Assembly: GCA_964482475.1 (NCBI GenBank)
Contig: CAYZXR010000001.1
Location: 37,997 to 101,996, forward strand
DNA from: an uncultured Planctomycetia bacterium
Lineage (GTDB): Bacteria > Omnitrophota > Gorgyraeia > Tantalellales > Tantalellaceae
Length of the DNA stretch: 64,000 nt
Reading direction: 5' to 3'
Part shown: piece by piece, positions 42,001-63,000 of the stretch
How the letters are laid out: the number at the start of each line of letters is the position of its first letter
Numbering within the stretch: the stretch's first letter is position 1
Translations under genes and position numbers: made by a program
Notes under the pieces: generated by a model
Seen by the model: the letters and a program-made list of their open reading frames with translations, nothing else
What the model was told of the DNA's origin: nothing
The model's database searches: none

Positions 42001-45000
42001 CTGGTATACACATTAAAATTGTCGCTAAAAGTGACCTTACCCGTCAAACTATCCCGTGAATAATTATATCCGTCAGCGTCATTTGACACCCTTAACGCAA
42101 GTTTACCTTCAACCGGAGTACTTGTAACATATTCCTCAACCAGATTAACACCGTTTTCTGTCTCAATAATGCTATATAGCTCTCCATTAATAACTACATT
42201 ATTAGCAACAGCATACTGTCCGCTTTCGTCCCTAAATAGCATATCTCCGGTATCCACGTCTTTTTCAACAGCGATAAATTCATTCTTCTCAATAACTGTT
42301 GTCGGCAGTACAAATTTGGAGAAAAATGTGATCTCATATTTATCCTGATCCGCCAGGTTAACAACCGTTACTTCAGGTGCGTTCGCGCTTAAGAAATCAT
42401 CATCTTCAATATTTTCCTGTATAGAAAATCCTCCCAGCTTCAGAGTTACTCCGGGAAGCTCAATATATTCCCCAAGTCCGCCTTCCGGTTTTTCCTCTAT
42501 CACAGACTGATACTTCATATTACCGCTAAACAGCGAATGTGTTTCACCGGTTTCAACTATAGTATATAGGCTGGCTTCACCAGTCTCCTGGTTTACCACC
42601 TCTATCGCGTTGCAATATATGCTCGGATAGTCCTCTACACCTATGGTTGCTTCAGGCAGATCAACAAAGAACTTCTTTGCTTCCATTGACATTGCCTTCG
42701 CCGGCTCCCAGAAGGTCTCTTCAATAACTACGGCTGAATCAATAACACGATTTGAATACGTTATGCCATTATGTGTGATTGTAAAGGATGGCTCGTATGT
42801 GTTATTGCTTTCGTTATGTATGGTCTCATAATCGATGTCATATGTAATGCCGCCAATCGTCAATTGCCTCTGTGCTTGAGCCCCAAGAGGATTATATAGA
42901 TCAACTTGAGTGCTTGTTTCAAAATACTTTTGCGTTAGCCGTACTCTTGGTTCGTTCAGGTCTTCGATATCCTCAACATCATAATAAGTTCCTGCTATGT
43001 TAATAACCTTTACTCCAAGGTTTGTTGTATAATTCAAATCCCCGTTATTAAATGTAATCGTTTCATCAGCGTTTCTAATCACACTATAAAGAACCTCATC
43101 CAGCTCAACTATTTCCTTATAATCGAGCGAGCTCACACTAGTATCTCCAATTAAAGTAACAGTATCTGTGTCTTCATCGTAAACAATGTAATAAATCTCA
43201 TCGTTTATCAATATTATCTCTGTATCTATGCTCTCTATGGGAATATTTACCCCATCATCAAGCATGTACTTATCATCCGTAACCGTTAACGAGTAAACTG
43301 TTCCATCAAGAACTACTAATTTTTCATACCTTGAAGCGATATCTGTATATTTTTCTATAAGTTTTATTCCTTCTTTCGCGTCCAACTCAACTATATATGT
43401 CTTCCCGTCATACAAAGTCACTTCTTTTGTGTCCAGATCTGATACATACGTTTTAGTGTTAAACTTAAACGAATAGGTTCCATCCGTGTTCACCTCAGCT
43501 ATGTATAGCTTATTATTCACTCTGTACATATTAACGCTTGTGGATTCCCTGTCAGAAGCAGTGAACTTAAACTCACCGGTAACAGCGTCTACACTTATGC
43601 TGTACTCCTTTCCCTTAATAAAGATAGTCTCTTGCTCCGGATCGATAGTCGTGATTATCAAGCCACTCTCATAATCAGTAAATACATATTTACCTTGATA
43701 GTTCTTGTCTATTACATAATATTCACCATTTAAGTTTATAACTTTAGCCGCTGTTACATCTTCCTTGTGGTTCTCAAGATAAACATAGCCTGTAATATCA
43801 TCCACATAGATATCGTACAAGGTTCCTCTGACTTGCTCCACATCCTCCGCACTCAAACCTTCGGTGAGATCCCCATATGATGTATGAAGCACTTCACCAA
43901 GTCTGACCGTATTCGTTGTGCTGTCGCTTACATATTCATGTGTCCCATCATTGAATGTATAAGTACCATCTCCATTATTGACAACCTGATAGTTAGCTCC
44001 GTATACCTCTATAACCTGGCCTTCAACAACTGAACTTGTCGCGGTCATTTCCCTCAACGTAACCATGCCGGTGAAAGGATCATCAACCACGTCATACATT
44101 ATGTAGTTGCCGAGAACAACCGTATTAGTTGTTTTATCTGAAACAAAACTCTTGCCCCAAAGACTTGAATAGAAAGCATACGATCCGTCACCATTATCTA
44201 CAACGCTGAGCACTGTAAACTCTTTCGATATAGGATCAACATATGCCGCCTCAAACGGTGTTAGACCATAGTTGTTGGTAGTAGCAACCTCAGAAACCCT
44301 GGTATCCCGCGTCATTAAACTTACAGCACCGGTTTCAGGATGTTTAGTTATCTGATATGTCAATTGCCCAAGTTCCACTGTACCTGTACGTGGGTCACTG
44401 TAAAAAACATTATCTTTCGCAAAGATCGCCTTCAGCATGGCTTTATACGCGTCAAACTCGGTACCATCGACTTCGCCGTTTTCATCGACACCAAGAGTAA
44501 TACCTGCTTCCGCTACCAGCATATTGTAATCATCGTCTGTCATGCCACCATTTTTGTTAAACATATAGCTTCCGTCGGAAAGAGCGATCGCGTCATACTC
44601 GTCCCCTAAAATACTCAACGATGTTACAAATCTGCCCAATTCATCGGCCCATATCTCAGCCGTCTGTATACTGCTCAAATACTGAGTACGGCCCTGGTAG
44701 CCGTCACCGTTTTCCAGAGCCAGCTTAATTTGAGTGAAAGGTGTGCTTTCGCTAACAATCGGTTCTCCATTGGAATTTTTCTCTGTTAAAACCAGTTCTC
44801 CGGTAACATTATCTGTACTGATCTGATAGGCTTTACCATCAAACAAAGTCACCTCATCAGCTTCTTTGTTACTAATATATTCGCGGCTTGTTGTATTGTC
44901 AGGATCATAAGTTATTTGAACTATCCCACTAGCATCCGTGAAGAACTTATGATTGATATCTACCGTGGTATTTTCTTTGAGAAATACGTTTCCTGAACTG

Positions 45001-48000
45001 ATAACCACTTTATATTCCGTTCCGTCCAGTATTACAGTTGAATCAGCCGCGTTGCTTTGTTTGGCTACAATCGCGTCATCAAACTCGTAAATACCATCTC
45101 CCAGATCTGTTACAGCATATTCTATGTTTGCCGTTGTTAAAGTCTTACCGAGATCATAAGAAGAGTTTATCTCAATCTCGATTCCCTCTGGCGCGGCAAT
45201 AAGAATAAGACCTCCGTTCTCCGGAGTTCCGACAGCTTCATAAACAACACCGTTACCCACAGTTACAATTTTTCTGTTTCCGTCTTCAACAAAATCATAA
45301 GTCGTTCCTGTCTCCTTGTCCGTTATTCTTGTGCCATCAAAAGCATATGTCCTGCCATCGACTTTAACTTCAAATAGTTTTGGTTGACTGCTAACAACTA
45401 TCCCATCCACTTGTGAAGTCAACGCGATCTTTGCCCCAGGAGCTTTTATGATGCTATACACATTGCCATCTACAACTATTTCTGTCCCGGAGGCATCGCT
45501 TGCATATTGATCACCACCTCTTGACAATACATATGTACCATCTGAATAGGCTTTATAAACATAGGTTTCACCGTTAATATCTATCTTCCCGCCAAGTGAT
45601 GTACGGCTAAAAGCTACCGGCTCCGCAACTTGAACTAATTTTATTTCCGTACCAGTCTTAATGATATCGTACCGGATACCACCAAGCTCTACAGTTTCAT
45701 TAGCGGAATCACTACGATAAAGACCGTCACCATCAACAAATTGATAGGCTCCGTGTCCTTGATCCAAAACGCTGTAAACGTTACCGCCGGCCTCAATGAG
45801 ATCCCCTCGAGAAGAAGTCCAGTCAGTGCTTTCCAACCCACAAATGATACCCCTATCCCCGGCTTGGGCTATATCTTTTTGCAGTACAAAGTATCCTACT
45901 CCTTTTGATACATCTCCATATACACGATACGCACTACTACCTTGTGGGGTCACCGTATCGGTAACCTCTCGCTTATAGTAGTCACTGTACATCAAGTATA
46001 CTTTACCATTCTCTTCAATAATATCATGCGTTCTACCATCAATTACTATTTGTTTTGAACCTTTGTTCGCGATATCGCCTGTAACCACATTAACATCAGC
46101 GTGGTCTAGAAGCGCGACAACGCTCACATTATCGTTCGCATCCAGCATTGTGACGAATTTATACGTTACACCTTCAACGTCAAATATCGTCGTTCCACTG
46201 GCAGCTATCTCGCCTAACTCCGTAGCCCCGTCCATTAAACCGAAAGACCCATCTTCTTTTTCGATAGAATAGTAATTCTTCTCGCCTACCCCCACAACGC
46301 TAATACCCTTGCTATAGTTTTCTACTTCCTCAACCGTCAAATAAACCATCTCACCATCATTTAACTCATATAAATTATTTTCTATCCTCAAAGCCACATA
46401 AATAGTTCCATCAATATTCAGCAACGTGCCATCTGCATGTACACTTGATGACAAAGATTCGTCCCTTCTGGTTTCCTTTAGTGTAATATCATCCGGAGAA
46501 CCGCCGACTATGGCATATCTAACACCATTAAGAGTGACAGTATTGGTCTCATCATTACTTAATGCTGCCTCGGCCCCGTCCTGTGGTGTGAATGTGTATG
46601 CGTATGTACCGTCTGTTTCCCGACCAATAACGTAGTTATTACCATCAACAGTAGCAACCTGGTTAGAAAGCGCGACAATGTCCCCTGTTGTATCTTTCAA
46701 TTCAACTTTACCGGTTTGCCAATCTCTGATTACATCAAAGGTTCCCTCCGGCAAAACAACTAGGGAAGCATTCCCTTCTGTCATATATTCGTCACTACCA
46801 CTAGTAAATTTGTATTCCTTTGATACCTTGTCATATGCAATATAATAGTCCGCACCTCCGACTTCCATTAATTGACTATCAGCTGATAAAATATCCACTG
46901 CCACGCTCTTCTCTATTAAAGATATTTCTGAAGGTAATGACCCGTCTGTTACGTCTACTACATAATCCTTACTCCCGATAGAGACAATACTCGTATAATC
47001 GTTGAAATCTCCCGTAGGCTCAAATATCTCTCCCTGCAGATTATCGAATTGTATGTTATTATATACACTTCCGGAATCGTAATATACGCTGCCTCCTCCG
47101 ATTACACCATAATAATCGCCCTCTATGGACATAGCTACTTCCGCACCCTCTAATGCCTTCGCGTCACTCGTGCCGCTTGGTTTAAAAGTAAAACCATCTT
47201 GAGGCGTACCTGAGACTTCATAATCAACACCGTTTATGGTAATTATCTTGTCGGATTCCTCACGCATGCTGCAAGAATCTATTGTTCCCCATCCGGAATC
47301 ACGTAAATAAAATGTCTTATCACCATTTACTCCATTGTAATTATACGAATAATAGTACTGAACCCCTTCCAACGTAAACGCGCCCTCCGTATTGTCATAG
47401 TAATACGATATTGTCGGATCAGTACTTGCCTGTGTCGTACCAATCAGCTTCACCCCTTCTCCAGAAACGAACATTACCTGATAAACCTCATCATTGATAG
47501 TTACTTCACCGGGAATCTGGACAGATCCTACGTTAAAAATATAGCATTCGTCGTCGGAATACATATCCCATCCATAGCGAGTCCCATCCAGATAAAAGCT
47601 ACCGTTGCCCCACAAATCTCGCCACTGAATTTCGAGATTCTCTACCGGTATCGCGCTACCGGCTCCAAGGGCAGTCAGGACCTCATCCAACGTTGTTCCT
47701 ATGCAAGAATACTCAACACCGTCTATTAATGCGTTATCTCCGAAATTAACTCTTGCTACTTCTGACGTGCCATTATCAAACACTATCATCCCCTCTTCCA
47801 CATATATCGCGTAATAATCATCTACTGCCTCACCCGCAAATCTGAGGACGCGCTTATCCACCGGTTCAATAACAGTTCCTGTCGCCGCGACTAATTGCAC
47901 ATCTCCCGTCATAAGCTGGAAGACTTTATAAACAACCCCATTTAATGTTACTGAATCAGTTTCAGTAACATTAATTGTCGCGAAAGTATTAGACGTTTCT

Positions 48001-51000
48001 ATTTCATAGAAAGTATAAATATCTCCTTCCTTTATCACACCATATGCTTCAATAAGCCCGTCATTTGCTATCGCTATCACTTGATCATAAACAACTTCGA
48101 CAGGGATCTGTTTACTAACTATTATGTTGTCCAATCCCGACCCATCAATATCATAGGTCATGCCCTGGATAATAACTGACGTTCCGTCCTCACTGCTGGC
48201 AAATGTATCCACTCCATCATTAAACCTGTATTGCTGACCATCAAAAGTAATTGAGTAAACTTTGCCTCCAAGAATCACTGTTTTTCTGCTACTAGATTCA
48301 ATGGCTTCTTCACCACGGCTTAAACTATAGGTACCGTCCTCGGATCTAGCCAGTTCGTATACGACGTCACCGATTGAGATCTCATTTTCATTAGCAGTTA
48401 TTATTTCGCTTGTGCCATCATTAAAGCTGAAAGACCCGTCATTATTATAGGTGTACGTATAATCATAATTTTTGTGATCTACCCCTACTACTCCTTCAGT
48501 CTGCACTCCACCTTCTATCGGCACTATAACGTAATCACCATCATTATTTTCCTTATACCGGTAACCGTCAGGCATAATAACAAATCCTTCAGTATCGATT
48601 AATCCGTTGAAATCATATGTAGCGCTTGTCTGTGTATCTGCCTGCACAACCTGGCCGTTTTCATCTATTGAACATGGAATAAATTTATATCCATATTCAT
48701 AGAACTCATAGCCATTCTCGCTATATGTCATTTTTGTATAATGAACTCTGTAATAGGTACCATTCACTTCTATCATCTGAACGGAACTACTGTTGTCACT
48801 CCTTTCCACAAGTGTAATCGCACCGGTTTCCTCATCTTCCTCGATATCGTACCTTACCCCATCCACCTCAATATAATTAACCGCGTCGCCTGAGGCATTC
48901 TCCTGTATAGCTGCCTGCCCCATAGCGTCTAAAATAATCTGCCTGTCCACGTCATCTAATAAGCCGTCATCATTAATATCTCCGGCAATTTTTTCTCTCA
49001 AGGTTACGTCACCTGTAGCAGGAGTATAAGATATCTTGTACTCCACGCCGTCAATAACCACATTATCATACCCATTTATACTGGAATAATAATTTTCTCC
49101 ATCGGTAAAAATAAACCCATCCTGCGAAGTGTTATTTATTGTATAGTTTTTACCATTGAGCCTTATTGCTTTTGTCGCAAGCGAGATTGAAATGCTTACC
49201 TTGGAATCCAAATATCTTTCCTTAAGAGCGATCTTACCTATAGCCAGATCCGTTATCACATCATAAACATCCCCTTCGATAACCACGACATCCAGACCTT
49301 TCTGGCTTATATAGCTCTCCTCACCATCATCAAAGACATATGTCCCATCTTCTTGTTTAGATATGATATATTGTTTGCCGCTGAGCGAAATTATCTCATC
49401 CTGAACAACAATACTTGAAACATAAAGTTTTCTTAAGGAAATATCACCCGTGATCTCGTCAATTTGTATCTTAAATGTTGTACTGCCGACTTTTACAACT
49501 GTTTCCCCTTCGGCATCCAGTCTACTATCATTTCCAAAACCGTCGTAGTAAACCGTATATGTGCCATTCTGGTTGTCTCTGATGCCGTATGTCTTACCCT
49601 CAACATCAACAACTTCATCAAAAATGCTTTCACTGATCTCAGGATTCTTATCTAATGCCACCCTCCAGAAATTGATCAGATCCATAGTCTGTTTTACAGA
49701 ATCAAGGTCACCCTCGCTGACTTTTCCGTCTTTATTAATATCCCGCGCTATCTCTAACGCACCTGCCAGTAGCTGTGAATCAGTATAACTAACCTGCCCG
49801 TCACCGTTAATGTCCGCATTTGCAAGTTCTTCTTCATCAACCTTTATCTCATTTGATCTGATTATCTCAGAGATCCTATCCAGATCTCCCTGGTAAACAT
49901 AGCCGTCTCCATCAACATCAACATTATAATCCCGCACTTCATTGAACAGATCTAAATCGCCAGGATCAACTACTCCATCCTTATTAAGATCTTTCGCTGC
50001 TATGTCTTCCAATACCTCTTGAGTACCAGTATTCATTACAGAATTTATATAGGCTAACAACGTATTTACATTTGGAATTTCTTCCTGTCCATCGTTATTA
50101 AGATCCAGATTCAGTTTATAGATATTATCCAAAGTCGCTTTATATTGTTCGATATCGAGATTGTCAACATCTCCGTCACCATTAATATCCGCATTTGCAA
50201 GTTCTTCTCCTGTAATGCCGTATGCCAAATATTCTTTCACCACCTGCCAACGAGCCAGATCATCTTCATCAATTCTTGTGTCGTTATTGATATCAACGTT
50301 ATTATCCACCATGTCTTTCAGATTCTCCAGATCATAGGTATTAATAATCCCGTCATCATTAACATCAGCGTTATTCAAGTCAGAAATATTCAATGAGCTG
50401 TACTGCAACATAGTGTTAATTGATTCATTCATCATATCAGCTTCTGCCTGGATTATTTCACCATCGCCATCCAAATCAAAACTGCTAAAATCAAAAACAT
50501 CCATGATGTCGACTAAACCCTGCTGATCAATGTTTTCGTCAAGCCCGGCACTTGAAATATCCATTTCTTTTTCAGTCTCGACCCCCAGTGAATCAACCAA
50601 CCCTTTTAAAACCGCAATATCATTATCATCCGCTATCCTATTCTTATTTAGATCAAGCTGTTTCGTGATTTCCTGAGCCAAAAATTCGATATCAAACTCT
50701 TGTGTTTCCTGAGACGCACCAACAAATTCATCGATTATGCCCTGAATAGTTTGAACATCTCCTTCATCAAAATTCAATCTCTCGACCAAGCTTATCTCAT
50801 CTGTGTCAATATCCCTGTTGACGGTATACGCGCATTCGTCCACGATAACACTCTTAGTTAAAACATCGCTTGTAAATTCTTCATCTGTAGATACATCTGT
50901 AAATGAATAGGTTCCATCTTCGTTTTCGGAAATGATCAGCTCCCGACCCTCTAAGGATATACTATTAGAGGAAACCGAGGAGCTCTCTTTCTTTTCTTTA

Positions 51001-54000
51001 TTCTTGTATATGAGCCTGAGATCTTCTAATTCATCTATCACGTCTTTGATCTCTCTCGCTTCCAACGCGTTTGCTTTAACATCTTCCGTCATATAAACAT
51101 CTTCTATGTCAATAGTTCCATCACCGTTGACGTCTCTTGCGGTTTCCGTAACAAATTGCAGTTTCTCTATATCTGTATAAGTAACATCACCATCATTGTC
51201 AATATCCACATTAAGCCTTTGACTCAATGACGCTTCTTCCCCAATTTCTTTTTCATAAATAGCCTGTTTAACAATGTGAACATCATCGCTGCTTACCTTG
51301 CCATCATTGTCAATATCACTACTGATTATCGAATCTTTATTGAAGATCCCTTCAAATTCCAAAATATCGTTTGTATAATCTTTCTCACCTTCTTTCGGTC
51401 TCCTTACAACCCTAGAACCAACGCCATCGCTACCACCTTCCATTTCTCCGGTAAATTCCCCATCCTCATCCATATCAGCTCTATAAAAATCTTCCAGCGT
51501 TAGAGGAATATCTAACGCTTTATACTTTTCAATTTTATAAGCATCACTTTTTCTCACCAGCTGATCCTGACTGAGAGAGGCAAGCTTTTCTCTTGCTTCT
51601 TTCACTTCAAGTTCATCGGCAGCATCAATAATAAAATCGTTATTTACGTCCCGTCTCTGGTAATCGTAAGGATTTAGGACATATCCCATTCCGTCAACAC
51701 CTGTTAATTCTATCTGCCTCTTGGTTTCTCTGAGAAGTTCAACATCAATGAAGTCGAACTTTCCGTCATTAGTTAAGTCATAATAATTGTTATTATTTGT
51801 TTCCAATGCCAGCATAAACTGTTCATAATCTGTCCTGGATATCTCGCCATCCCCGTCCCTGTCCGCTATTGCGCTATCGATCGTACCGTTACCATCAACA
51901 TCTACCAGCTCTAATCTCCAATCAGTCACTTCCTTATTCACAAAAATAGTCTCTACATTTACCTTATTATCATCATTCTCATCCAGACCCTTCAATACCG
52001 TCATATAATTACTTATCTTTATTAAATCTTCCAAAATCTTTCTATCATTATCTGTTCCAGATGAATAATCGATTACTCCGTCATCTCTAAGGCCATCCAG
52101 ATTAATACGCCCCTCGATAACATTATTAATCTCGGTTATGTCCTCTGTACCCACAACATCATCACCATCAAAATCATAAGTTTTATATTCACTAATTTGC
52201 AGAATCTCACCGTCTTCAATAGCCCCTAACGCATCCATTAACATCTTTTCATCTCTTAAATCTACAACACCGTCTTGGTTTAAATCCAACTCTGTTGTTG
52301 CGGATACCAATTCCTGCATTTTTAAAATATCTTCGTTATTAATTAAGTTATCCTCATTCACATCCGCTTTGCTCATTAGAAGTCGTGTTAATTCAAGATC
52401 GGCACCACTCATAACATCTTCAATTCTCGCGACATCAAGCGCGTTTACAAAACCATCTCCATCAACATCCGGAACTGTTCGTTTTATTTCCTCAAAAGCA
52501 AATGGCGCTTTTGCCAACCACTTTTCCGCAAGCGCGATCTGGTTCTTGACCGCGTCATATTCTTGATCAATACTGTTCAAATCCTTCAATGTCACGAACC
52601 CATCTCCATCGATGTCAGCCCTATTCAGCTCGGCCCCACCAACGATCTTGCCTGAAATAAAGTTCGAAATAACAGTTTCAACCTGAGTTATCTCATCAGC
52701 ACTTATCCACCCGCTCCCATCCAGATCCAACCCTTCAGGGGCCTCTAACGCGTTTTCCAGTAAATCTTTATCAGCATATGTTACATACCCGTCTCCATCA
52801 AGATCAGACAGATCCATCATGCTTTCTGTAACAGTAAGAGCATCCTTATAGATTATATTCTCGATTGTCTGAATGTCAGAATTGTTAACAGATCCGTCAC
52901 CATTAACATCAATTACACGAGCAAGCGCGGTTGCAATATATTCCCGGTCATTGTCTGTAACATATCCGTCACCATCAACATCCATTCTATTGATTTCTTC
53001 GACTGTTAGATACTTACCCGCGGCAACTAGGTTTTTTATTCTGAAAATTTCTTCTCTGTCCTGACCATCGATAACAGTGTCTCCGTTTATATCGTATTTT
53101 GAGCGATCGATCAAAGCCAAAGCCGAGATGTCGTCCAAAATTTCATCAACCCAGTAACTCATATTTTCATAATCAGCATCATCCACTACGCCATCTGAAT
53201 TCAAATCCGCCTTTTCCACTTCTTCCGGTAAGGCCGTTTCTCGAAGACCAAGAGAGGTTATGACATCTTCTAGTGACGCTACATCCGCGCTATTTCGTTT
53301 GCCATCACCATTCACATCACTTTGAGCGTATCTTTGCAATGCTGTTCTCAAGACATCAACATCGGCTTCTGAGACATTTCCGTCTCCATTAATATCAGCT
53401 CGTCCGATTGTTCTGCTAGAAAATGAAAAGCCCATATAATCCATTACATCATTTAATCGAGCCAGATCCTTTTCATCAAAAGTCCCATCTCCATTAATAT
53501 CTGTCTGCCCTACCAAAAGTCCCCTTGTGTAAGTAACGTCCCTATTGTCCACAACCCCATCCCCATTTACATCCGCATAATCAAACTTGTGGGATTCGGT
53601 CGACATGCGAATGAGCTCTGAAATAACTTCAAGATCGGATGTATCAATATTTCCACTATTATTGATATCAAAAACATTCAAATCATCCACATCGACGCTA
53701 CCGTCTTTATTAATATCCGAAATCATCAATGTCTCTATGAATGTTTTATCCACTACATTGGCGTTGCCGTCGCCATTCGCATCAGATCTTGATAGTTCAA
53801 TAATTTGTTTAACAATAGAATAGTCCCATGCGTCAATCTCACCATTTTTATCGACATCAACATTGAGTGATTTAGCGACATATTGCTCTTCCAGTGACGC
53901 AATTGACTCTACCGCACTCAAGTTCGTTATAAACTCAACTGTCTCACGAGAGGTATATTGATCTTGACCGACCTGTATACCTATATCTATACCCGAAGCG

Positions 54001-57000
54001 ACTACCTCAACCGCTCCCAGTAAACGATCATTATCCACATATATTTGAGCGAATGCCAGATCGGCATCATCAATTATCCCGTTACCGTTTATATCAGATT
54101 TCTCAATTTCATTCACACTTATCGTATGCATCGCATCAACAATATCGCGTATATATGCCATATCAGCAAAGTCTGCCTCCGTGTCACCATCAAGATCTTT
54201 GTAATATTCCAGACTTTTACTTAACGCGGTGAAATCCCTGTAATCAATAAAACCATCCGCGTTTATATCCGCTGATTCAATTAATTCTTTTGACGCTATA
54301 ATATCCTGCAAACGCGCAAGATCTTTCGCGTCAACGACCGAGTCCCTTGTAAGATCATAATAAATGGAATATTCTCCATCACCAGCGGCTTCTGTACCCT
54401 CGAGCCATAATTCAACATCCATATCAGTGATTTGCCCATCTTTGTCCATATCAGCAGTACTAACCAGACTTTCAGCCGTTATAATGTTTTCGATCATCCT
54501 GCCATCACTGATTGACAAAACTCCGTCACCATCAACATCAAATCTATCAAGTGGCGGACTTGTAATATAGATTTCATCTACATCTATTCCTGAGATATTG
54601 AACCCTCTATCAAGTTCGAATTCGACTTCATGTGTTCCGGGGTCTATCCCCTCAAGCTCTATGGAAATAGCTTTCCTGGCCATAATTCCTTGCGTATTTG
54701 GAACTATTATTGTGCCATACTCCTCTCCATCCACCTTCACGGTAAACAGCGCGACTTCTTTCTCCCCGTTCATAACTTCAAGACCAATAATATATTTTCC
54801 ATCCTTTTCCATGTTCACAACTTTTGTCATTGAATAACTGGCCCCATCCATCTCATAACGGTCCGTAGTCGGACTATAAGAATTCCACTCATCGCTATCT
54901 TGCCAATCTATAACACCATCTGAATTAATATCGGATTTCTGCAAACTATCATAGGACAAATAGTATTGAGGTAAATCTATCTTAACAAACTTCTTATCCG
55001 CGATTGTTGCATTCATGATCTCTTCAATAATTTGCACGTCATCTTCATCGATGAGGCCATTACCGTCTATATCTACATGGTTCTTAATGGCCTCTCCAAG
55101 TAAGAATTCATCCGCATAATTCACAATGCCATCACTATTAAGATCAGCTGCCATCAATCCCGCTTTAGTAATCCCAAGGTTATTTACAGCGTTTGTTACA
55201 AACCTTTCGATCTCATCAAACGCTTCGACATCTGCATAAGTAACGCTATTGTCCTGGTCAAAATCTGTGGTGCCGTAAAATGCTCCTTCAAGAACCGCTA
55301 TTTCATTCGGGTCCATAACTCTATCCCGATCATAATCTAACATCCCGAAAATTCTATCTTTTATAGACGAGGTCAGGATTGCGTTTTCCAGAAACTCACG
55401 ATCTTTTTCATCGCTTGTCCCGTCTCCATTAAGATCTAAAGCTACAACACCATCCGACTGTATTCTGAAAAACTCTTCCATATCACCGGCATCTACATGA
55501 CCTGTATTATCCACATCAGCTTCATTCATGACGCTATTCCGGGTCATAACAGCAAGTATCAGATCTAGATCCAGTGCGCTAACAATACCATCTTTGTTGA
55601 TATCTTTCTCAAATCCCGGATCGCTGAATGCTTCGATATCGTCTTCATCAACTTTGCCATCACCATCGAGGTCACTTCTAGCCTCATATATTAGTTGTTC
55701 TACCAGAGTTTTCATACTATCCGCGCTAACGTATTGACCTGAAAGATTGAAATACTTGTCTGACAATACCAGGTTGTCCTCATCAAGCTCCACATTATAC
55801 ACATAATTGCCTATCCGCAGATCCCCATATGCCGTGCTTGCAACTGAACCCTCTGATGAAGTCAGAGTAAATGTTCCATCGCTGTTATCCACTATTCCGT
55901 AATCAACACCCTGAATCCTTATGGTTGTCATTCCAGCAGAGGCAACAAACCTATATTCTCTGGTAAACGTCGTTTGTCCTGATACTTCGTCATAAACCAC
56001 TTTAAATACTTTGCTGTCTATCTTCACTTCACCATCTTGTATCGCATAAGTTCTGTCACCGGCAGAAATACTCATGCCGTTTGATGCTATAGTAAAGTTT
56101 TCGCCGTTCAACGTCACTAAACTGCCAACGGAAATTATTTCAACTCTGTCTGCCGCGCCCAAATCCAGATCATAGTAATTCTCCATATTGCTTACCAATG
56201 CCAACCTATCAGCGGCGTCAATTATCCCGTCTCCTGTAAGATCCGCGTTTTTCAGCATTTCCACATCAACTACTTCCGCGGCATATATGGCTCGATACAC
56301 TTCATAAGCTTCCTGGGCTTTATCTGATATCTCCCTTAATTCTTTTAAAGCCTGGACTATTTCAACGTCTTTTACGTTTAAGTCATGTTCATCAAGCCTT
56401 CCGTCGCCATCAAGATCATACAAGTTGAACAGTTCTAATGAATCTTCCATAGCCTGCACATCGGCGCCATCAACCACACTGTCGTTGTTGGAATTTACAA
56501 CGTAGTATTGTCCAAAAAGCGCTATGAGCTGACCATCAGCAACCTGACTTTCTATCTGCCTTGTTAGTTCTATTTCACGTCCGGTGAGAATTATCGAATA
56601 AATGTCTTCACCTATCTGAATCGCACCTTGTTCACTTGAATAGCTATCCGTGAAGGTTGACAAAACAAATTCGTCACCATTAACATCCACCGTGAAGTCC
56701 TCACCGTTAATAGTCAACACTCCGTTACGAGAAATAAGAGTTAAAGAAGATGGATCCTCAACTATCTCTTTTAAGAAAACAATATTACTTACATTATCAA
56801 CACTTATCTCATAAACTCTTCCACCCAACTCGATTGTTTCTCTTGAAGAATCTGTTTGGTATCTATCAAATCCATCAGCAAAAATATAAACACCTTTGAT
56901 ATTGTCATAAGTAACAGTGTATACTTTACCGCCTACGGTAATTGCCGGTTCTTTGCGCCTGCTAGTAAATGATTTTTCAATTATCAAGTCACCCGAAGGT

Positions 57001-60000
57001 CTTTCTGTAAGATTATATGTATACCTACCTATCCTGGCCACATCACCTTCGTCCCCATAATAAACTCGCGGATATGCTGTCTTTCTCTCGGTAAATATAA
57101 ATCTACCATCTTCAGCCTTGCTAATAGCGTAATCGACTCCGTCTATTTCTACCCGATTATTTTCGGAGAAAACACGGCTTCTTTCTTCAATGGTAAAAAT
57201 ACCGTTTTCGTCTTTTGACGCATCAAAAAGGATGTTACCGATCAACAATACATGCTCGCCGTTACTATTTATATAACTATTGACAACATCCCCTGCCGCT
57301 GTCTTCAGGGAATATGTCTCCGCACCTCTTTGAGTTAATGCATATTCCACTCCTTTTATCTCTATCCTGTTACCTTCAGCCTTTTGAACATTCGGCTCGG
57401 TAAGCGCAAGGAATCCCGAATCTTGATCCACATCAATGTTATACAAATAACCATCGCTTAACCTTACCGTCTGACAAACAAAATCACTTTCAAACTCATT
57501 TTGATCATCGCTGAATACATACGTACCTCTGTTGTAATCAAACTCAACTGTATACTCTTTTCCATATACCAAGATTGACGGCAAGCTTGACACCATGCTA
57601 CTTTTCGCATGTACTTGATCGAGAGCAACCTTGTCAGTTAATGGATATTTTGAAACATTAAATGATTTCCCTTCCAAAAATACTATATTCCCCTGAAATA
57701 GACTTGATGCAACTATCTTCCCATCATCAAAAAGACATGTGCCATCTTCTAGTGTTTCTACAACATAAATTTTCCCATCCAACAGAACCGCTTCTTCGTC
57801 AAGCACCGAGGCTTCGCTAACAGTCTCATAAAGCGAAATGTTCCCATCTGTATCCTGCAAGACATTGTATTTTATTCCAGAAACTTCGATCGTGTTCCCA
57901 TCAGATGAACTGGTAGCAATTACAGAGTTACCAACCTTCAGTGTTCGAATGCCTTCCTGCGACTCAACAACATCATATACAAGACTTCCGATCTGCAACC
58001 TTTGAAGCGCGACATTTTCAATATTATCCGAAGTTAGTATGCTAGCGGAAGCCACACTAACCATAGGTTCAACCATTGATAAGCTAAGAATACCCTCACT
58101 CACAAAAGCCTGATACTTTAATCCTTCAAGATCGGCAAGATCACCCTGCGCAAGTGTGAATTCCTCGATCCCTCTCGCGACTGTAAAGCTTCCATCTTCA
58201 TTGCTTGCAACTTCGTACTCTCCTCCAGCCAGGCTAATAACCTGATCAGCTACATGCTCACTTGTGTAAACTATTCCCATAGCCTCCGGAACAACAGCAA
58301 GCAGAACAACATCACCAGTAGCGTCATTTGTAGTCACAACATATTTTCTCTCCAAGAAACTCACAACTTCTCTCGCCTGATCATCTATTTCACAAGAAAT
58401 GATTTTAGCCCCATCATCAAAGTTATGTGTTCCATCCGTATTTTTTGTTACCTGTAACTTCAGTGACGGAGTTGTCTCGCCTTGGTATCTTTGTACTAGT
58501 ATTATCACTTCATCCGCAAGAACTGACGATGTTACCGGCTGCACAATCAACGAGATATCCCCTGTAACTTCATCGGCAATACCTATATCATAGCTAATAC
58601 CCTCTATGACTATTTTTCCGCCCAAATCATCACTAAGATACCCACTCAATCCGTTGCTTAAGACATATCTTCCTTCGGTGTCTGTACTAACAGTATAATT
58701 CATACCGTCGATTGAAAGTACTTGGCTAGCAACCTGATATAGATCACCTGATCCACCCTGCAAAGTGATCTCATTATTAGCTACATCAACTACAATATCA
58801 TAGACAACATCTTCTAATTCTATCTTATCTGTAGCAGCATTAGAATAGATCACATTCCCTTGATGTTCAAAGGCATATGTCTTAGCTCTATCGTTATACG
58901 TAACCGCGTATGTCCTACTTCCTACTCTGATGACCTGATCCGCCAGAATTGAGCTAACCTCAGGAACTTTTACGACAAAAAGCTCCGATGTTATCCCATC
59001 CCTGCTAACAACATATTCCGCACCATTAATGTTAATAAAGTTCTCACCCGATTGAGCCGAGAATTGATCTTCGCCGTTATATAACATATATCCTTGAGTC
59101 CCGGCATCATAAGAAATTGTATAGAAGCTGCCCTCGATCTTCACGACATCGTCAGTAACAGGCAACCCCGTCAAATGCTTTTCTATCAAGTTTACTTCAC
59201 CTGTTACATTGTCCACTTCGACACTGAATTCACTTCCGTTAATAACTACTGATCTTTCTTCACCTTGTGCGTCATAACTATTCACACCGTCTGCTATGCT
59301 ATAGGTTTCGTCAAATGTTATGTCTGATTTCCTTCTCTCATTCGGACTAACTGCCAAAGCGATATACTCTATTATGTCGTCCATACGAGACAAGTCTTCT
59401 TCATCGATACGATTGTCGCCTGTAAGATCAGCTACACTTAACGCGTTAAGGAAATAGTCCCTATCAGATAATCCGCTGGCGATGTTATAATCCAGCTTAC
59501 CGTTATTGTTGTAATCCATTTCATATCTATAGGTAGTGCTATATCCGGATGTTTCTTTAACCTGATTCATAAGCTTTTTACTGACATAGTAATAAGCTAC
59601 ATCTTTTACACGTTCGACATCTGAGAAATCCACCTGGTTAACCGGTTCTAATTCCCCCTGTCCGTTATCGTATTCATTAATGAAACTGTATATTTCATCA
59701 AGATCAGCATTATCAACGATCCCGTCACCATTAATATCCGCCAATACGTCATACTGGCCGATATAGTTTTCCACATAAACAATATCATCCTCTCCGACTA
59801 CATCAAGCCCAAACATGCTGTATTTATCTATTTTAGCCTCTAGCGCATCTACGTCGTCCAGCCAAATAACCCCATCCCCATTAACATCTACCGTCGCCAG
59901 ATTAAATTCGGTCTTATTAACAAAAACTTCGCGGACTTGCACACTATGATCAATGCCAATATTCGTAAACTTGAATTCAATATCATGTTCCCCTTTACTC

Positions 60001-63000
60001 AAGTCCAACCTAACACTTCCTTCAACATATTTGGCGTCATTGCTTCCGTCTAATTTAATCGTGTTTCTATACATCCCGTCTATATAAACCTCTACTTCAT
60101 ATCGGAACCCGAGAGGAAGATCAGCCCCTGAATATTTGCGTGCTGAAATACCTACATAATAACTTGCGGAATTTTCAATATCATACGCATAAGTTAAAAC
60201 GGCATCTTTGGTTGAAGAATACATACTGTCGTATTCAGCGGTGAATTGGGCTAAAGTCTGTACGCTGGACGCATCCTTTCTCCCCTCTAAAATGCTACCT
60301 TCCGGCCAAAGTGGGTCATCAACTTTACTCCCCGGCCATATCAACTCATAGGCTTTCTCAACAAACTCTACGTCTACTTCGTTCACTAATCCTTCATCGA
60401 CCTGACCATCATCACTTAAGTCATTTAAATTATAATTATCATAGTTCCTATAACTGTTCATGATTATCGCATAGTCTTCTTGATCTACCAGGCCATTACC
60501 ATTCAGATCGGCATCTTTAAATGTCTCTTGCAAATTCCAGTCATATTCATCAAAAACTCCGTCGCCATTTCTATCTCCAAAAGCACCTGTTTCGACCAGG
60601 TTATCGTAATAGGCGATAATCCCCTGCATCTTGTACATGTTCTCGAGCCACGCAGCATCCGTGTCATCGATAACACCGTCCGCGTTCAGATCATACAAAT
60701 ACACCAATGAATCCAGAGCTTCCTGCAACTCTTCGATATCTTCCGTATCAATGTAACCGTTGTTCCTATAACCTTCTTCATCGTCCCACTTACTGTTTTC
60801 TCGCAAATCAAACTCAATAGCTTTATTCTGAAGGTAATTATCTCTTGAGATCACAACCACTTGAGCCAGAGCCTCTTCATCAGAATACTCAACGCCATCT
60901 ATCTCAACATGAAAAGTCATGTCGTGATACAAAAGCGTGTCTCTCATAGTCTGGACATCCTTCGCGTTCACTATGCCATTTTCATCATGATCGGCTCGAT
61001 TTACCAATACCTGCTTATCAATATTCGTCTGTATAACTTCCGCGTCAGACACGTTAATATATCCATCGCCATCAACATCCACCATACTGGTTTGTTTTAT
61101 TGTTATCTGACCATCGCCGATACTGTAAACCTTAAATAGGTTTTCACCTATCTCTATCAGGTCAGAACCTTCAATGCTCACATAAACATCTTCATTATCT
61201 GCTTTGTTAACAAAAGTCCAGGTGTCATCCTCAAAAGTTATATCAAATTGTCCCACAAGAGCAATCTCGATCACGCCTTCCGCGCTTGTATACTCTTTCG
61301 GCTGTTTAAAAATTCGTATACCTTTAGTAATAGTGTCCTGTTCTACTTCGTATGTAATACCATCAATAACAACTTCATTTGATATTACTTCCACAGTAAC
61401 CCCGTTATCGCCTAACAAGGTCCATGTTTCATCTCCATGAGCTGTTACGTTATAACTAACTCCTTCAAGCTCTATGATCTGGTTATAAACTGTCTCACTG
61501 CCATCAGGACGAACACTTAGGAAAATGTGATTTGAATCCGCGCTAAGCTTGTTTATGGTATACGTTGTATTATTAATTCCAACTTCCTTGCCACCATCAA
61601 CAGAGACAATTCCGTCTCCAAAAATATATTCACTACCGTTAAATGTAATGTCATATACAACATCCTGTAGCTCTATTGCCATCCCTTCGGTTTCAACACT
61701 CGAAGATGGAGGAAGGGCGAGCGAGATATCACCTGTTATGATATCTCTATCAACATTATATTGAACACCTGCCAGTGTTATCGAGTCCGTCGCGCCTTCA
61801 GCTACTAAAGACCCGGAAACCAAATCGGTAAAACTGTAAACTCCTGTTGCGGTTTCGGAGACATTATAAACAACCCCAAGCTCGCCGCCTACTCTGATCT
61901 GGCTGTTACCCAAGACTTCTGTCGCACCGGAAATGTCTCTATCCATATTGATAACGCCGGCAGTTTCACTGATAACATATGGCTTATTACCCAAAATAAC
62001 GTTATTGCCAATACTGTTGATCTGGGCTATATTGCCTAAAATATCCGTAAAAATATAATTTTCACCCTCTTTTGTGACGGTATAAACAATATCCTCAAAC
62101 TCTACTTGATTTGCCAACTCTTGTGAGCTGACCACTTTTTCAGCTATCAATGTAATGCTGTCCTCTACCGGATAATCTTCTACCACGCGATAAGATACCT
62201 GTCCCAGAACAACATCTCCGTCCGAGCTTAACACGTCCTCCGCAGTGTCAAAAAGATTAACAAATCTGTATTCGTCACCAACAACTGATATTTCGTAAAC
62301 ACTTCCCGCTACCTTCATAATATTTTGAGACACAGCCATACTCGTTTGCCCCATCTCTGTAAGCACAAGGCCATCCTGTTTCTCTGTTACTAGATATCGA
62401 CTGTCATTTATGGATACTTCACTATTCACGTCAGTTTGCGTGGAATTATTTTCATTTGTTGTTTCGGTAAATGTGAAAATGCCTGATTTTTTTGAAATTG
62501 AGTATACTTTGTCTCCGATAGAAATTAGATATCCAGGAATCTCAAAACCCCGTGATAATTTTTCCTTAAGAACAATATTGCCTTGAGGGTCAACTACCTG
62601 AATATCGTAAATAACATCATCTATAGAAACGGTACCTGTATTAACATCGCTATCATATGTAACCTGACTATCGGCGGTAGATTCAAATGTATAAATTCCA
62701 TCCTGCAAATTTACCGTGTACAACACATCGTTTAAATACATTGAGTTGGATTCTTCCGGTAAATCGGATACAATATTAGCTTTTTCGGCGATAGAAATGT
62801 TATTTTGATCGTCTTTAACAACGTTATAAGTTCTGCCATCAAATACAAATTGATTTTCGCTAACCGCTATCTTATCAAAAGAGTCCTCTATGCTTGTTAA
62901 CTCAAACTCTCCGTCACCCACCTGTCTTATATCGTATATCGTACCATTAAAATTCACCATCGGACGCTCTCTTTCCACTCCGACTTTAAACATCGGGGTG

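What the first reader, a model, noticed from the sequence alone, without database searches (positions are those of the whole stretch)
49650..56450. Three very large arrays of dockerin-like calcium-binding repeats, the reverse of the usual one-dockerin-per-protein arrangement
In cellulosome systems a dockerin is a single C-terminal pair of EF-hand-like loops, each about 22 aa, that docks an enzyme onto a scaffoldin carrying many cohesins. Here the loop D-x-[DN]-x-D-G-x-[IV]-[NDS]-x-x-D recurs continuously over about 2,200 aa at 49,650–56,450, about 1,500 aa at 25,100–29,760 and about 600 aa at 59,300–61,100. Extra pairs sit at 19,560–19,900 and single loops at 2,880–2,940 and 63,900–63,960. That many tandem dockerin-type modules in one polypeptide suggests one of two things. 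The protein could be a multivalent plug that docks onto many cohesin-like partners. Alternatively it could be a calcium-rigidified rod segment, as in RTX or cadherin-type adhesins.
Basis: partly seen in the sequence, partly recalled or inferred. Interest (0 to 1): 0.75.

Follow-up and report, generated by a model that had tools for sequence, protein, structure and literature searches.

The report
Dockerin arrays inside a giant gene
The calcium-binding dockerin repeats are real, but all of them lie in one enormous gene (over 21,000 codons, filling the whole window) of a kind already described in the tiny, host-dependent Omnitrophota bacteria, so this is a new and very divergent example of a known oddity rather than a new kind of system.

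Summary
The loop D-x-[DN]-x-[DN]-G-x-[IVL]-x-x-x-[DE] occurs 70 times against 0.3 expected by chance. A loop+helix HMM finds 92 units. Pfam Dockerin_1 scores 266.8 and 199.4 bits, with 18 significant stretches. The arrays are not continuous: only 36-43% of their residues belong to loop-helix units. They are interspersed with beta-hairpin repeats and a recurrent CBM-like beta-module.

The closest relatives (25-32% identity, collinear over 1,000-2,100 aa, including the C39 peptidase-like region) are contig-truncated giant ORFs from Candidatus Omnitrophota MAGs. "Dockerin-type giant proteins" were described by West-Roberts et al. 2023 and noted by Seymour et al. 2023. An exhaustive census finds relatives with up to 46 matched stretches in 2,796 aa.

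Of the 92 units, 85 keep the full Ca2+-ligand set. Modules often abut with no linker. The cohesin-contact positions are unconserved and acidic, and no cohesin domain was detected. The arrays are most likely Ca2+-stabilised structural or adhesive segments of a surface fibre, not a cohesin-docking plug. Structure prediction was inconclusive. Verdict: new member of a known kind.

The parts
3..63998 (-). Single open reading frame with no stop in 21,332 codons, open at both ends of the window. It is a fragment of a giant gene; the N-terminal side lies at high coordinates.
   Evidence: Six-frame stop count: 0 stops in this frame against 685-2,781 in the other five frames. The protein is 20% D+E, 7.2% K+R, and has 37 Cys.
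49680..56495 (-). Main dockerin array (aa ~2,502-4,773): 41 loop+helix units, 29 two-loop module matches (23 near full length), interrupted by beta-rich inserts.
   Evidence: The Pfam Dockerin_1 best stretch is aa 4694-4748, covering model positions 3-56 of 57.
28764..29732 (-). Second array, first half (aa 11,423-11,745): 9 loop+helix units.
   Evidence: Pfam Dockerin_1 199.4 bits for aa 9200-14000.
25218..27239 (-). Second array, second half (aa 12,254-12,927): 17 loop+helix units. It is separated from the first half by 532 aa of beta-hairpin repeats.
59361..61085 (-). Third array (aa 972-1,546): 9-10 loop+helix units with an embedded CBM-like beta-module.
19542..19871 (-). Two abutting dockerin modules (4 loops, spacing 24-37-24) just C-terminal to the C39-like domain (aa 14,710-14,819).
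   Evidence: Pfam Dockerin_1 24.9 bits.
32613..35276 (-). Three tandem copies of a ~268-aa unit (50-79% identical), each holding a beta-rich lectin-like segment plus a dockerin pair (aa 9,575-10,462).
   Evidence: Self-BLAST; units at aa 9607, 9635, 9875, 9904, 10143, 10172, 10416; Dockerin_1 at 16.4 bits, below cutoff, in one copy.
59883..60188 (-). ~100-aa beta-module (aa 1,271-1,372) whose last strand runs straight into a dockerin loop. It is a conserved companion of dockerin arrays in this family; a CBM-like identity is only hinted at.
   Evidence: It recurs at aa 8,644-8,726 and 10,993-11,053 and in at least 14 census proteins. Faint CBM_6 match at 14.8 bits against a cutoff of 28.9. Profile against PDB: CBM77 at E=0.13.
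37821..38069 (-). Second copy of the beta-module (aa 8,644-8,726), abutting the isolated dockerin loop at aa 8,723.
54540..54878 (-). ~113-aa beta-rich insert between two dockerin loops of the main array (aa 3,041-3,153).
   Evidence: Sequence reading. Weak matches to P0018 and P0014. No Pfam hit above cutoff.
35799..49661 (-). Long block of ~35-aa beta-hairpin-type repeats (V.I.G..Y.V..D..TG.I.L) separating the dockerin arrays (aa 4,780-9,400). The same family also occurs at aa 150-960, 1,575-2,500, 10,725-11,400 and 11,760-12,250.
   Evidence: Self-BLAST; sequence. It aligns to Omnitrophota relatives P0025 (243 bits over 1,015 columns), P0018 and P0024.
20556..20816 (-). Peptidase C39-like domain (aa ~14,395-14,481); the only enzyme-family signal in the window.
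   Evidence: Pfam PF03412 at 32.8-36.9 bits against a cutoff of 22, model positions 43-129 of 133. NCBIfam NF045998 at 25.6 bits. The region aligns to Omnitrophota relatives P0037 (130 bits), P0015 and P0026.
2886..2933 (-). Isolated dockerin-type loop (aa 20,356-20,371), VDINGDGVINSNDADI.

Best explanation
The window is an internal fragment of one giant gene (more than 64 kb, more than 21,332 aa) of the 'Dockerin-type giant protein' class known from Candidatus Omnitrophota. The flagged regions are arrays of genuine dockerin-family modules. Each module has two 12-residue Ca2+-binding loops, each followed by a ~12-aa helix, ~35 aa apart. Many modules are joined head to tail with no linker, so that the exit helix of one loop leads directly into the next loop.

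Shown: the ORF, the family assignment by profile, the intact Ca2+-ligand pattern, the spacing, the collinear homology to Omnitrophota giant-ORF fragments, and the absence of detectable cohesin.

Inferred: after export into a Ca2+-containing environment, the ~90 or more sites in this fragment bind Ca2+ and lock the acidic chain into folded, stiff segments. [quoted passage not shown] On this reading the dockerin modules act as Ca2+-dependent structural or adhesive elements, possibly packing against the adjacent beta-modules, rather than as plugs for cohesin-bearing partners. This is functionally analogous to RTX, cadherin-like and BIg-repeat adhesins but built from a different fold.
For: There is one stop-free frame of 21,332 codons. 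Dockerin_1 scores 266.8 and 199.4 bits with 18 significant stretches. The loop+helix HMM finds 92 units, with consensus A-D-[ILV]-N-G-D-G-x-[VI]-D-x-x-D and Asp at position 12 in 91 of 92. Of the 92 units, 85 have all ligand positions 1, 3, 5, 9 and 12. Spacing modes are 24 and 35-37 aa and often alternate, giving a 59-aa period equal to the length of the Pfam model.

The module profile's best PDB hits are C. thermocellum dockerins. Information content is confined to the ligands, Gly6 and the hydrophobic core; the cohesin-contact positions are unconserved and acidic, whereas 17/18 are basic in Firmicutes-type multi-dockerin controls. No cohesin family hit appears in 21,332 aa or in the relatives' ORFs.

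The arrays are 23% D+E with one Cys each, and there is no convincing transmembrane helix in the first ~16,500 aa. Relatives collinear over 1,000-2,100 aa, including the beta-hairpin and C39 regions, are all partial giant ORFs, and 17 of the 18 with an organism label are Omnitrophota. A conserved beta-module runs directly into a dockerin loop, matching the CBM-plus-dockerin 'ladder' in West-Roberts et al. 2023. The published interpretation of such proteins is as adhesins. Predicted secondary structure is a regular coil-helix repeat with the helix/short-helix/helix pattern between 35-spaced loops.
Against: There is no experimental or confident structural evidence for a rod. Both AlphaFold2 models were of low confidence (pLDDT 60.8 and 69.8, pTM 0.33-0.34), and the fold search gave no significant match (best E 0.45). 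Variable helix surfaces could equally mean many different partner specificities rather than none. The rest of the genome could not be inspected, so cohesin-like partners elsewhere cannot be excluded. Extracellular location is inferred, because no signal peptide or anchor lies within the window. The Omnitrophota origin rests on ~25-32% identity to relatives; the source contig was not found. The CBM assignment of the beta-module is below every significance threshold.
Confidence: 0.55

Rival explanations
1. Reverse scaffoldin: the tandem dockerins are a multivalent docking platform that recruits many cohesin-bearing proteins (enzymes or anchors) onto the giant protein, or plugs the giant protein onto a cohesin-covered surface.
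For: The modules are bona fide members of the dockerin family by profile, and high-affinity cohesin binding is the only experimentally established function of that family. The variable helix surfaces could encode many distinct specificities. Cohesin-dockerin systems exist outside Clostridia, for example in Cloacimonadota and Chlorobium.
Against: No cohesin family hit appears in 21,332 aa or in the ORFs of related contigs. Neither Omnitrophota giant-protein paper reports cohesin partners. Contact positions 10, 11, 17 and 18 carry 0.24-0.56 bits and are acidic, unlike the basic 17/18 pair in Firmicutes-type controls. Zero-linker packing of modules would sterically hinder a ~150-aa cohesin docking on each one. 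Non-cellulosomal dockerins without cohesins are well known (Peer et al. 2009, as cited).
Confidence: 0.15
2. Intramolecular docking: the dockerin helices do not bind external partners. Instead they clamp onto the neighbouring beta-modules of the same chain (a fused CBM-plus-dockerin fold), building the ladder-like superstructure predicted for another Dockerin-type giant protein. The long pure-dockerin stretches would then be connectors.
For: A ~100-aa beta-module recurs three times here and in at least 14 related proteins, and nearly always runs straight into a dockerin loop. Other beta-rich inserts sit between loops (aa 3,041-3,153). West-Roberts et al. predicted dockerin-like helices flanking a CBM35-like barrel in CAILPI010000004_73.
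Against: Most units here (for example aa 3,424-3,870, 4,500-4,780 and 12,250-12,930) are in runs with no beta-module between them, so this can explain only a minority. The CBM-like nature of the module is not significant.
Confidence: 0.2
3. The motif recurrence is a by-product of an Asp/Asn/Gly-rich composition or of misassembled repeats, and the long frame is not a real gene.
For: The protein is very Asp-rich (10.5% D). Giant repeat-rich genes are prone to assembly problems; the relative L001 is broken by N-gaps.
Against: There are 70 strict motif hits against 0.3 in shuffles. There are zero stops in 21,332 codons against hundreds to thousands in the other frames. Position-specific conservation matches the dockerin profile. 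There are no long or near-identical DNA repeats in the array. Collinear homologues exist in independent MAGs.
Confidence: 0.02

Closest known systems
Dockerin-type giant proteins of Candidatus Omnitrophota (West-Roberts et al. 2023, bioRxiv 10.1101/2023.11.21.568195). See also the dockerin-bearing class in bioRxiv 10.64898/2026.06.07.730766 and the nine-dockerin giant ORF of Aquinicolibacterium lacustre in Seymour et al. 2023, PMC10066038.
   Same: It is a giant ORF with many Dockerin_1/EF-hand repeats and a C39 peptidase-like domain on the C-terminal side. Long N-terminal stretches lack transmembrane helices. A beta-module is fused to dockerin helices, and large unannotated beta-repeat regions are present. 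The closest database relatives are partial Omnitrophota ORFs with collinear alignments.
   Different: It is only 25-32% identical to any relative, and nothing closer exists in the 5.8-billion-cluster database or in the contig collections. No TSP3, discoidin, DUF1080, GNAT or SecA hits occur within the window. The count here is 18 Pfam-significant dockerin stretches, 45 near-full modules and 92 loops in a 21-kaa fragment, against 'up to 15 copies' and 'nine' in the published surveys. The C-terminal ~6,300 aa have no detectable relatives at all.
Type I dockerin modules of clostridial cellulosomes (Pfam PF00404; for example PDB 1ohz_B, 4fl4_A, 1daq_A)
   Same: The two-fold duplicated segment is the same: a 12-residue loop with ligands at 1, 3, 5, 9 and 12, Asp at position 12, Gly6 and a hydrophobic residue at 8, followed by a helix. 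Loop-to-loop spacing is ~35 aa, and the profile match covers positions 3-56 of 57.
   Different: There are dozens per chain instead of one C-terminal copy, and modules abut without linkers. The cohesin-contact positions 10, 11, 17 and 18 are unconserved and acidic instead of Ser/Thr and Lys/Arg. No cohesin was detected. No glycoside hydrolase is attached within the window.
Small multi-dockerin proteins of Firmicutes-type (P0001, P0004, P0008 and others; 330-680 aa, 4-9 dockerin modules)
   Same: They carry several complete dockerin modules in tandem in one polypeptide.
   Different: Their modules are separated by 20-30-aa linkers, with no 22-27-aa spacing in P0001. Positions 17/18 are basic as in canonical dockerins. 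They have normal protein size with signal-peptide-like N-termini, and show only ~25% identity and at most 63 bits to the window.
Ca2+-rigidified repeat adhesins (RTX beta-roll adhesins, cadherin-like and BIg-repeat adhesins such as those of Chlorobium chlorochromatii, bioRxiv 10.64898/2026.03.19.712371)
   Same: The proposed working principle is the same: a very long, acidic, Cys-poor, repeat-built extracellular protein whose repeats need Ca2+ to fold and stiffen after export and which is used for cell-cell contact (inference; for the Chlorobium case).
   Different: The fold and family are different. There are no RTX nonapeptide, cadherin or BIg Pfam hits above threshold in the window. This is a functional analogy only.
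EF-hand pairs (calmodulin-like, Pfam EF-hand_7)
   Same: EF-hand_7 scores 93 bits. Calmodulin lobes score nearly as well as dockerins against the module profile (41.8 against 52.2 bits), and at zero-linker junctions each loop is flanked by helices on both sides.
   Different: Asp rather than Glu occupies loop position 12 in 91 of 92 units. Dockerin_1 outscores EF-hand_7 nearly three-fold. The context is that of an extracellular giant protein rather than a cytosolic sensor.

Membership tests
Dockerin type I module (Pfam PF00404) | Significant match to the family profile above the curated threshold | tested here: met
   266.8 bits with 10 stretches (aa 0-4800), 199.4 bits with 7 stretches (aa 9200-14000) and 24.9 bits (aa ~14671-14732), against a cutoff of 22.9. 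The best stretch covers model positions 3-56 of 57.
Dockerin type I module (Pfam PF00404) | Two duplicated ~22-aa segments (Ca2+ loop plus helix), about 33-37 aa apart | tested here: met
   Spacing modes are at 35 and 37 aa (14 cases in 31-39, with 20 pairs extracted). The alignment to 4fl4_A and 1ohz_B spans both loops with almost no gaps.
Dockerin type I module (Pfam PF00404) | Ca2+-ligand residues at loop positions 1, 3, 5, 9 and 12, with Asp at 12 | tested here: met
   85 of 92 units have the full set: D1 in 89/92, N/D3 in 85/92, D/N5 in 88/92, D12 in 91/92. Actual Ca2+ binding was not measured.
Dockerin type I module (Pfam PF00404) | Three-helix fold with the two loops paired | tested here: inconclusive
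   The four-loop model (pLDDT 69.8, pTM 0.33) shows the expected helix/short-helix/helix order. Foldseek against PDB gave only non-significant EF-hand and dockerin hits (best E 0.45; 4fl4_A TM 0.37).
Dockerin type I module (Pfam PF00404) | Conserved cohesin-recognition residues (positions 10/11 Ser-Thr type, 17/18 Lys-Arg type) | tested here: not met
   These positions carry 0.24-0.56 bits. Position 18 is acidic in 39/92 units and basic in 3/92. Control Firmicutes-type units are basic at 17/18 in 38%/62%.
Dockerin type I module (Pfam PF00404) | A cohesin partner encoded in the same organism | not testable with these tools
   The window holds only this ORF and the source contig was not found. 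Within the ORF no cohesin family hit exists, and none is on record for the relatives' ORFs.
Omnitrophota Dockerin-type giant protein (West-Roberts et al. 2023) | Giant ORF (tens of thousands of aa) | tested here: met
   More than 21,332 aa, open at both ends. The authors' working limit of at least 30,000 aa cannot be checked because the gene ends lie outside the window.
Omnitrophota Dockerin-type giant protein (West-Roberts et al. 2023) | Numerous dockerin / EF-hand repeats | tested here: met
   18 Pfam stretches, 64 module matches (45 near full length) and 92 loop units.
Omnitrophota Dockerin-type giant protein (West-Roberts et al. 2023) | Bacterial thrombospondin type 3 repeats, discoidin, DUF1080, GNAT domains | tested here: not met
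   No such Pfam hit at E<=0.01 anywhere in the 21,332 aa. They may lie outside the window. The relatives P0011 and P0019 do carry DUF1080/3keto-disac_hyd and Laminin_G_3.
Omnitrophota Dockerin-type giant protein (West-Roberts et al. 2023) | Origin in phylum Omnitrophota | tested here: inconclusive
   There is no taxonomic marker in the window. Of the best-matching many-dockerin proteins with an organism label, 17 of 18 are Omnitrophota MAG proteins. They align collinearly over 1,000-2,100 aa at 25-32% identity.
Omnitrophota Dockerin-type giant protein (West-Roberts et al. 2023) | C39 peptidase-like domain towards the C-terminus | tested here: met
   PF03412 at 32.8-36.9 bits at aa ~14,395-14,481. 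The region is conserved in P0037, P0015 and P0026.
Omnitrophota Dockerin-type giant protein (West-Roberts et al. 2023) | C-terminal transmembrane anchor followed by SecA-related domains | not testable with these tools
   There is no SecA hit in the window. The only marginal hydrophobic segment is at aa 16,515; the other two peaks lie in a poly-Ala tract. The true C-terminus is beyond the window.
Omnitrophota Dockerin-type giant protein (West-Roberts et al. 2023) | CBM35-like beta-barrel flanked by dockerin helices | tested here: inconclusive
   The conserved beta-module-plus-dockerin-loop unit is present, but CBM similarity is sub-threshold: CBM_6 at 14.8 bits and CBM77 at E 0.13.
RTX / cadherin / BIg Ca2+-dependent adhesins | RTX nonapeptide beta-roll, cadherin or BIg domains | tested here: not met
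   There are no such Pfam hits above threshold; Big_11 reaches only 19-23 bits against a cutoff of 25. The resemblance is functional only.
Scaffoldin (cohesin arrays) | Tandem cohesin modules | tested here: not met
   No cohesin family hit in 21,332 aa.

The most novel reading that the evidence does not exclude
The zero-linker concatenation of dockerin modules (alternating 24-aa and 35-37-aa loop spacing, shared with Omnitrophota relatives but absent from Firmicutes-type multi-dockerin proteins) may build a continuous, Ca2+-dependent EF-hand superhelix or rod. That would be a previously undescribed fibrous architecture in which the dockerin fold has been re-purposed from a cohesin plug into a calcium-gated structural spring or tether of a giant predatory or episymbiotic surface fibre. 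Its hypervariable acidic helix faces would provide a diversified binding surface.
Probability: 0.25. Interest if true: 0.65.

Novelty: new member of a known kind. Interest (0 to 1): 0.35.

Why it matters
Giant genes of Omnitrophota are among the longest known in any organism, and their function is untested. This window adds a very divergent member (no relative above ~32% identity among billions of proteins) with one of the largest dockerin counts seen.

The analysis also sharpens the functional question. The calcium ligands and core are conserved while the cohesin-contact surface is not, and modules are fused without linkers. That pattern argues that in these proteins the dockerin fold serves as a calcium-dependent building block or adhesive element rather than in cellulosome-type docking. 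If confirmed, this would be a clear case of a classic protein-protein interaction module re-used as fibre material. It would also help explain how ultra-small bacteria attach to hosts or prey.

For the scan itself the lesson is practical: the flagged 'three arrays' are one gene, and the class is already in the literature.

Tried and rejected
(1) Finding the source or close relatives. The C39 region gave nothing in GTDB representative genomes or in the 5.8-billion-cluster protein search. Exact 40-mers from both window ends gave nothing in genome contigs or metagenome contigs.

(2) The word-indexed homology search with a dense array stretch returned only weak Firmicutes-type hits. The true relatives appeared only with the exhaustive profile search.

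(3) Structure. A 338-aa ten-loop stretch with a paralogue alignment gave pLDDT 60.8 and pTM 0.34. A 111-aa four-loop unit with 16 in-register units gave pLDDT 69.8 and pTM 0.33. Foldseek against PDB was non-significant.

(4) Identity of the inserts. Relaxed Pfam on ten segments, a profile of the recurrent beta-module against PDB and member-wise Pfam gave only sub-threshold CBM hints.

(5) C-terminal 8.3 kaa. There were no PDB relatives (one search was a frame error), no NCBIfam hit beyond the C39 match, and no homologues of the duplicated 270-aa domain.

(6) Rejected: chance or compositional origin and an assembly-repeat artefact.

(7) Rejected: TSP3-type or RTX-type repeats. There are no Pfam hits, and Dockerin_1 dominates.

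(8) Rejected: the apparent 'five separate dockerin genes' in the relative L001. ORFs 2-5 are split by N-runs, which are scaffold gaps.

(9) The Kyte-Doolittle 'TM' peaks at aa 18,859 and 19,047 were rejected as transmembrane helices because they lie in a poly-Ala low-complexity tract.

Full report
**1. What is in the window.**
Listing ORFs gave only eight short ones in 64 kb, which suggested a frame running off both ends. A six-frame stop count confirmed it. One minus-strand frame has no stop in 21,332 codons, while the other five frames have 685-2,781 stops. GC content is ~40%, with a constant strong strand skew. The whole window is therefore an internal piece of a single gene longer than 64 kb. 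The product is very acidic (D 10.5%, E 9.4%, K+R 7.2%) and has only 37 Cys.

**2. Check of the observation.**
A slightly generalised strict pattern gives 70 hits against a mean of 0.3 in composition-preserving shuffles.

An iterated HMM of one loop plus its helix finds 92 units at i-E<0.01, distributed as follows:
- 41 in 49,650-56,450
- 26 in 25,100-29,760
- 9 in 59,300-61,100
- 4 in 19,560-19,900

"Continuously" is an overstatement, because loop-helix units cover only 36-43% of the residues in the arrays. The second array is split by 532 aa of another repeat. At the DNA level there are only 30-43-nt matches of 60-88% identity over the loop-coding motif. The repeats are therefore ancient and diverged, not a misassembly.

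**3. What the repeats are.**
Pfam gives Dockerin_1 at 266.8 bits (10 stretches) for aa 0-4800 and 199.4 bits (7 stretches) for aa 9200-14000. It gives 24.9 bits next to the C39 region, against a cutoff of 22.9. EF-hand_7 reaches 93 bits on the same stretches. There is no TSP3, RTX, cadherin or cohesin hit anywhere.

The unit consensus is A-D-[ILV]-N-G-D-G-x-[VI]-D-x-x-D-[LV]-x-x-[LI]-x-x-x-[IL], with Asp at loop position 12 in 91 of 92 units. Of the 92 units, 85 carry every ligand position.

Loop-to-loop spacings have two modes, 24 aa and 35-37 aa, which often alternate (…37, 24, 35, 66, 24, 35, 24). The 35-37 pairs are the Pfam-defined dockerin; the best stretch, aa 4694-4748, covers model positions 3-56 of 57. 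The 24-aa steps are junctions where one module's last helix runs directly into the next module's first loop, with no linker.

A profile of 19 two-loop modules (A1) finds C. thermocellum dockerins as its best solved relatives: 4fl4_A at 52.2 bits, then 6kg9_A, 1ohz_B and 1daq_A. These align over both loops with the same spacing, and calmodulin lobes follow close behind.

**4. Structure tests.**
A ten-loop stretch (aa 3,424-3,762) modelled with paralogues gave pLDDT 60.8 and pTM 0.34. Only the regular coil-helix periodicity can be trusted. A four-loop unit (aa 4,667-4,777) with 16 in-register units gave pLDDT 69.8 and pTM 0.33. It showed helix/short-helix/helix between the 35-spaced loops, as in dockerins. 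Foldseek against the PDB listed only EF-hand proteins and dockerins, but none significantly (best E 0.45). The fold assignment therefore rests on sequence profiles, and how the modules pack in tandem is unresolved.

**5. Context inside the protein.**
Self-comparison shows that the N-terminal ~13,000 aa alternate between dockerin arrays and blocks of ~35-aa beta-hairpin-type repeats.

A ~100-aa beta-module (aa 1,271-1,372) recurs at aa 8,644-8,726 and 10,993-11,053 and in at least 14 related proteins. It almost always runs straight into a dockerin loop. Its similarity to carbohydrate-binding modules is only sub-threshold.

A Peptidase_C39-like domain lies at aa ~14,395-14,481 (32.8-36.9 bits), followed by two abutting dockerin modules.

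The remaining ~6,300 aa have no family, structure or homologue hits. This part contains a G-Y-D-x-[ND] pentapeptide array and a ~210-aa Ala-rich tract flanked by a duplicated domain. No convincing transmembrane helix is present.

**6. Relatives and taxonomy.**
The C39 region and exact 40-mers found nothing in the genome and metagenome collections or in the word-indexed protein search. A dense array stretch found only weak Firmicutes-type multi-dockerin proteins with linkers.

The exhaustive profile search over 1.84 billion representatives found 19,282 proteins at E<=1e-3 and 118 at E<=1e-30. The top ones hold 20-46 matched stretches in 2,000-7,800 aa.

BLAST of these against the window protein shows collinear alignments of 1,000-2,100 columns at 25-32% identity. 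For example, P0037 residues 1633-3734 match aa 11,273-13,009 and its residues 5593-5888 match the C39 region. P0025, P0018 and P0024 also match the beta-hairpin blocks.

Of 20 top proteins looked up, 17 are labelled Candidatus Omnitrophota/Omnitrophica MAG proteins, one is labelled Uhrbacteria, and two have no organism. Nearly all are "partial", with the contig about three times the protein length.

A 69.9-kb Omnitrophota contig (L001) is filled by dockerin-bearing ORFs that are separated only by N-run scaffold gaps. L002 is similar. No cohesin family is on record for any of these ORFs.

With the same profile, this window has 64 module matches (45 near full length) in 21,332 aa, whereas P0009 has 40 (35) in 2,796 aa. 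The density here is therefore not exceptional. The 22-27-aa zero-linker spacing is common in the Omnitrophota proteins (15 of 46 gaps in P0009) and absent from P0001.

**7. What is known.**
West-Roberts et al. (bioRxiv 10.1101/2023.11.21.568195) define "Dockerin-type giant proteins" of Omnitrophota. These have many dockerin/EF-hand and TSP3 repeats, and one has C39-like domains. They also have TM and SecA parts near the C-terminus, a beta-helix tubule, and a CBM35-like barrel flanked by dockerin helices. They are proposed to mediate attachment to host or prey. A 2026 preprint lists PF00404 in 21 long Omnitrophota proteins with up to 15 copies. Seymour et al. 2023 reported nine non-cellulosomal dockerins in a giant ORF and suggested an adhesin role. 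Neither giant-protein paper reports cohesin partners.

The finding is thus a new, highly divergent member of a described class. It meets most of the defining features that could be tested within the window. It lacks TSP3, discoidin and DUF1080 hits, which may lie outside the window.

**8. Mechanism.**
Shown:
- intact ligand sets
- conservation limited to the ligands, Gly6 and the hydrophobic core
- near-zero information and an acidic bias at the positions that contact cohesin in type I dockerins, whereas Firmicutes-type controls are basic at 17/18 in 38%/62% of units and the Omnitrophota relatives behave like the window
- zero-linker concatenation of modules
- no detectable cohesin

Inferred: the arrays are Ca2+-dependent structural or adhesive segments of an exported surface fibre. 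They would fold and stiffen on binding roughly one Ca2+ per loop, possibly packing against the adjacent beta-modules. This is functionally analogous to RTX, cadherin-like and BIg adhesins. I put this at about 0.55. Cohesin-type multivalent docking is at about 0.15, and purely intramolecular dockerin/beta-module clamping, as the main role, at about 0.2. These readings are not mutually exclusive. Decisive tests are listed separately.

**9. Verdict.**
Novelty: new member of a known kind. Interest is moderate to low for the scan (0.35), because the phenomenon is striking but already published. The open point of interest is the possible re-use of the dockerin fold as a linker-less calcium-dependent fibre element.

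Noticed in passing
window 8454-8829 (minus strand, aa ~18,388-18,515): About 25 tandem pentapeptide repeats G-Y-D-x-[N/D] (…YDINGYDIDGYDPNGYDPDG…), seen by TRF as period 15/30. No family match; function unknown.
   Followed up: partly
window ~6777-7415 (minus strand, aa ~18,862-19,075): A ~210-aa Ala/Glu/Thr low-complexity tract encoded by a GCA-rich run (TRF period 3, ~209 copies). The two strongest hydrophobicity peaks in the protein lie inside it and are probably not transmembrane helices. The short plus-strand ORFs at 6565-7413 in the ORF list are artefacts of this run.
   Followed up: partly
window ~7600-8453 and ~5960-6740 (aa 18,520-18,790 and 19,088-19,345): A ~270-aa domain duplicated at ~55% identity on either side of the Ala-rich tract. 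It has no Pfam, PDB or database homologues.
   Followed up: yes
window 32613-35276 (aa 9,575-10,462): Three tandem copies of a ~268-aa unit at 50-79% identity, by far the most recent duplication in the gene. Each copy combines a Trp/Gly-rich lectin-like beta segment with a dockerin pair.
   Followed up: partly
window ~20,900-20,960 and ~20,670-20,700 (aa ~14,347-14,366 and ~14,438-14,448): Read by eye, the C39-like domain has a possible catalytic Cys motif (QIINCASYVLGDY) upstream of the Pfam-matched part, and a His motif (GRDHFVSIENI). Whether the peptidase is active and self-processes the giant protein was not tested.
   Followed up: no
window 3-19,000 (aa ~15,000-21,332): About 6,300 aa with no Pfam, NCBIfam or PDB hit and no alignment to any of the 157 related proteins collected. 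This is orphan sequence even within the Dockerin-type family. The only marginal hydrophobic segment is at aa 16,515-16,533 (window ~14,400-14,453).
   Followed up: partly
L001 1-31046 (JADGBR010000015.1, GCA_015231405.1): The five consecutive 'genes' (3,026, 3,985, 942, 1,013 and 14,271 aa) called on this 69.9-kb Omnitrophota contig are separated, for ORFs 2-5, only by runs of N (10, 10 and 91 nt). They are probably one giant gene split by scaffold gaps. Only the first junction has a real TGA with a frame change.
   Followed up: partly
P0020 (KKW34662.1): One many-dockerin protein with the same beta-module-plus-dockerin unit is labelled Candidatus Uhrbacteria (CPR) rather than Omnitrophota. 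This could be a binning error or a sign that the architecture occurs outside Omnitrophota.
   Followed up: no
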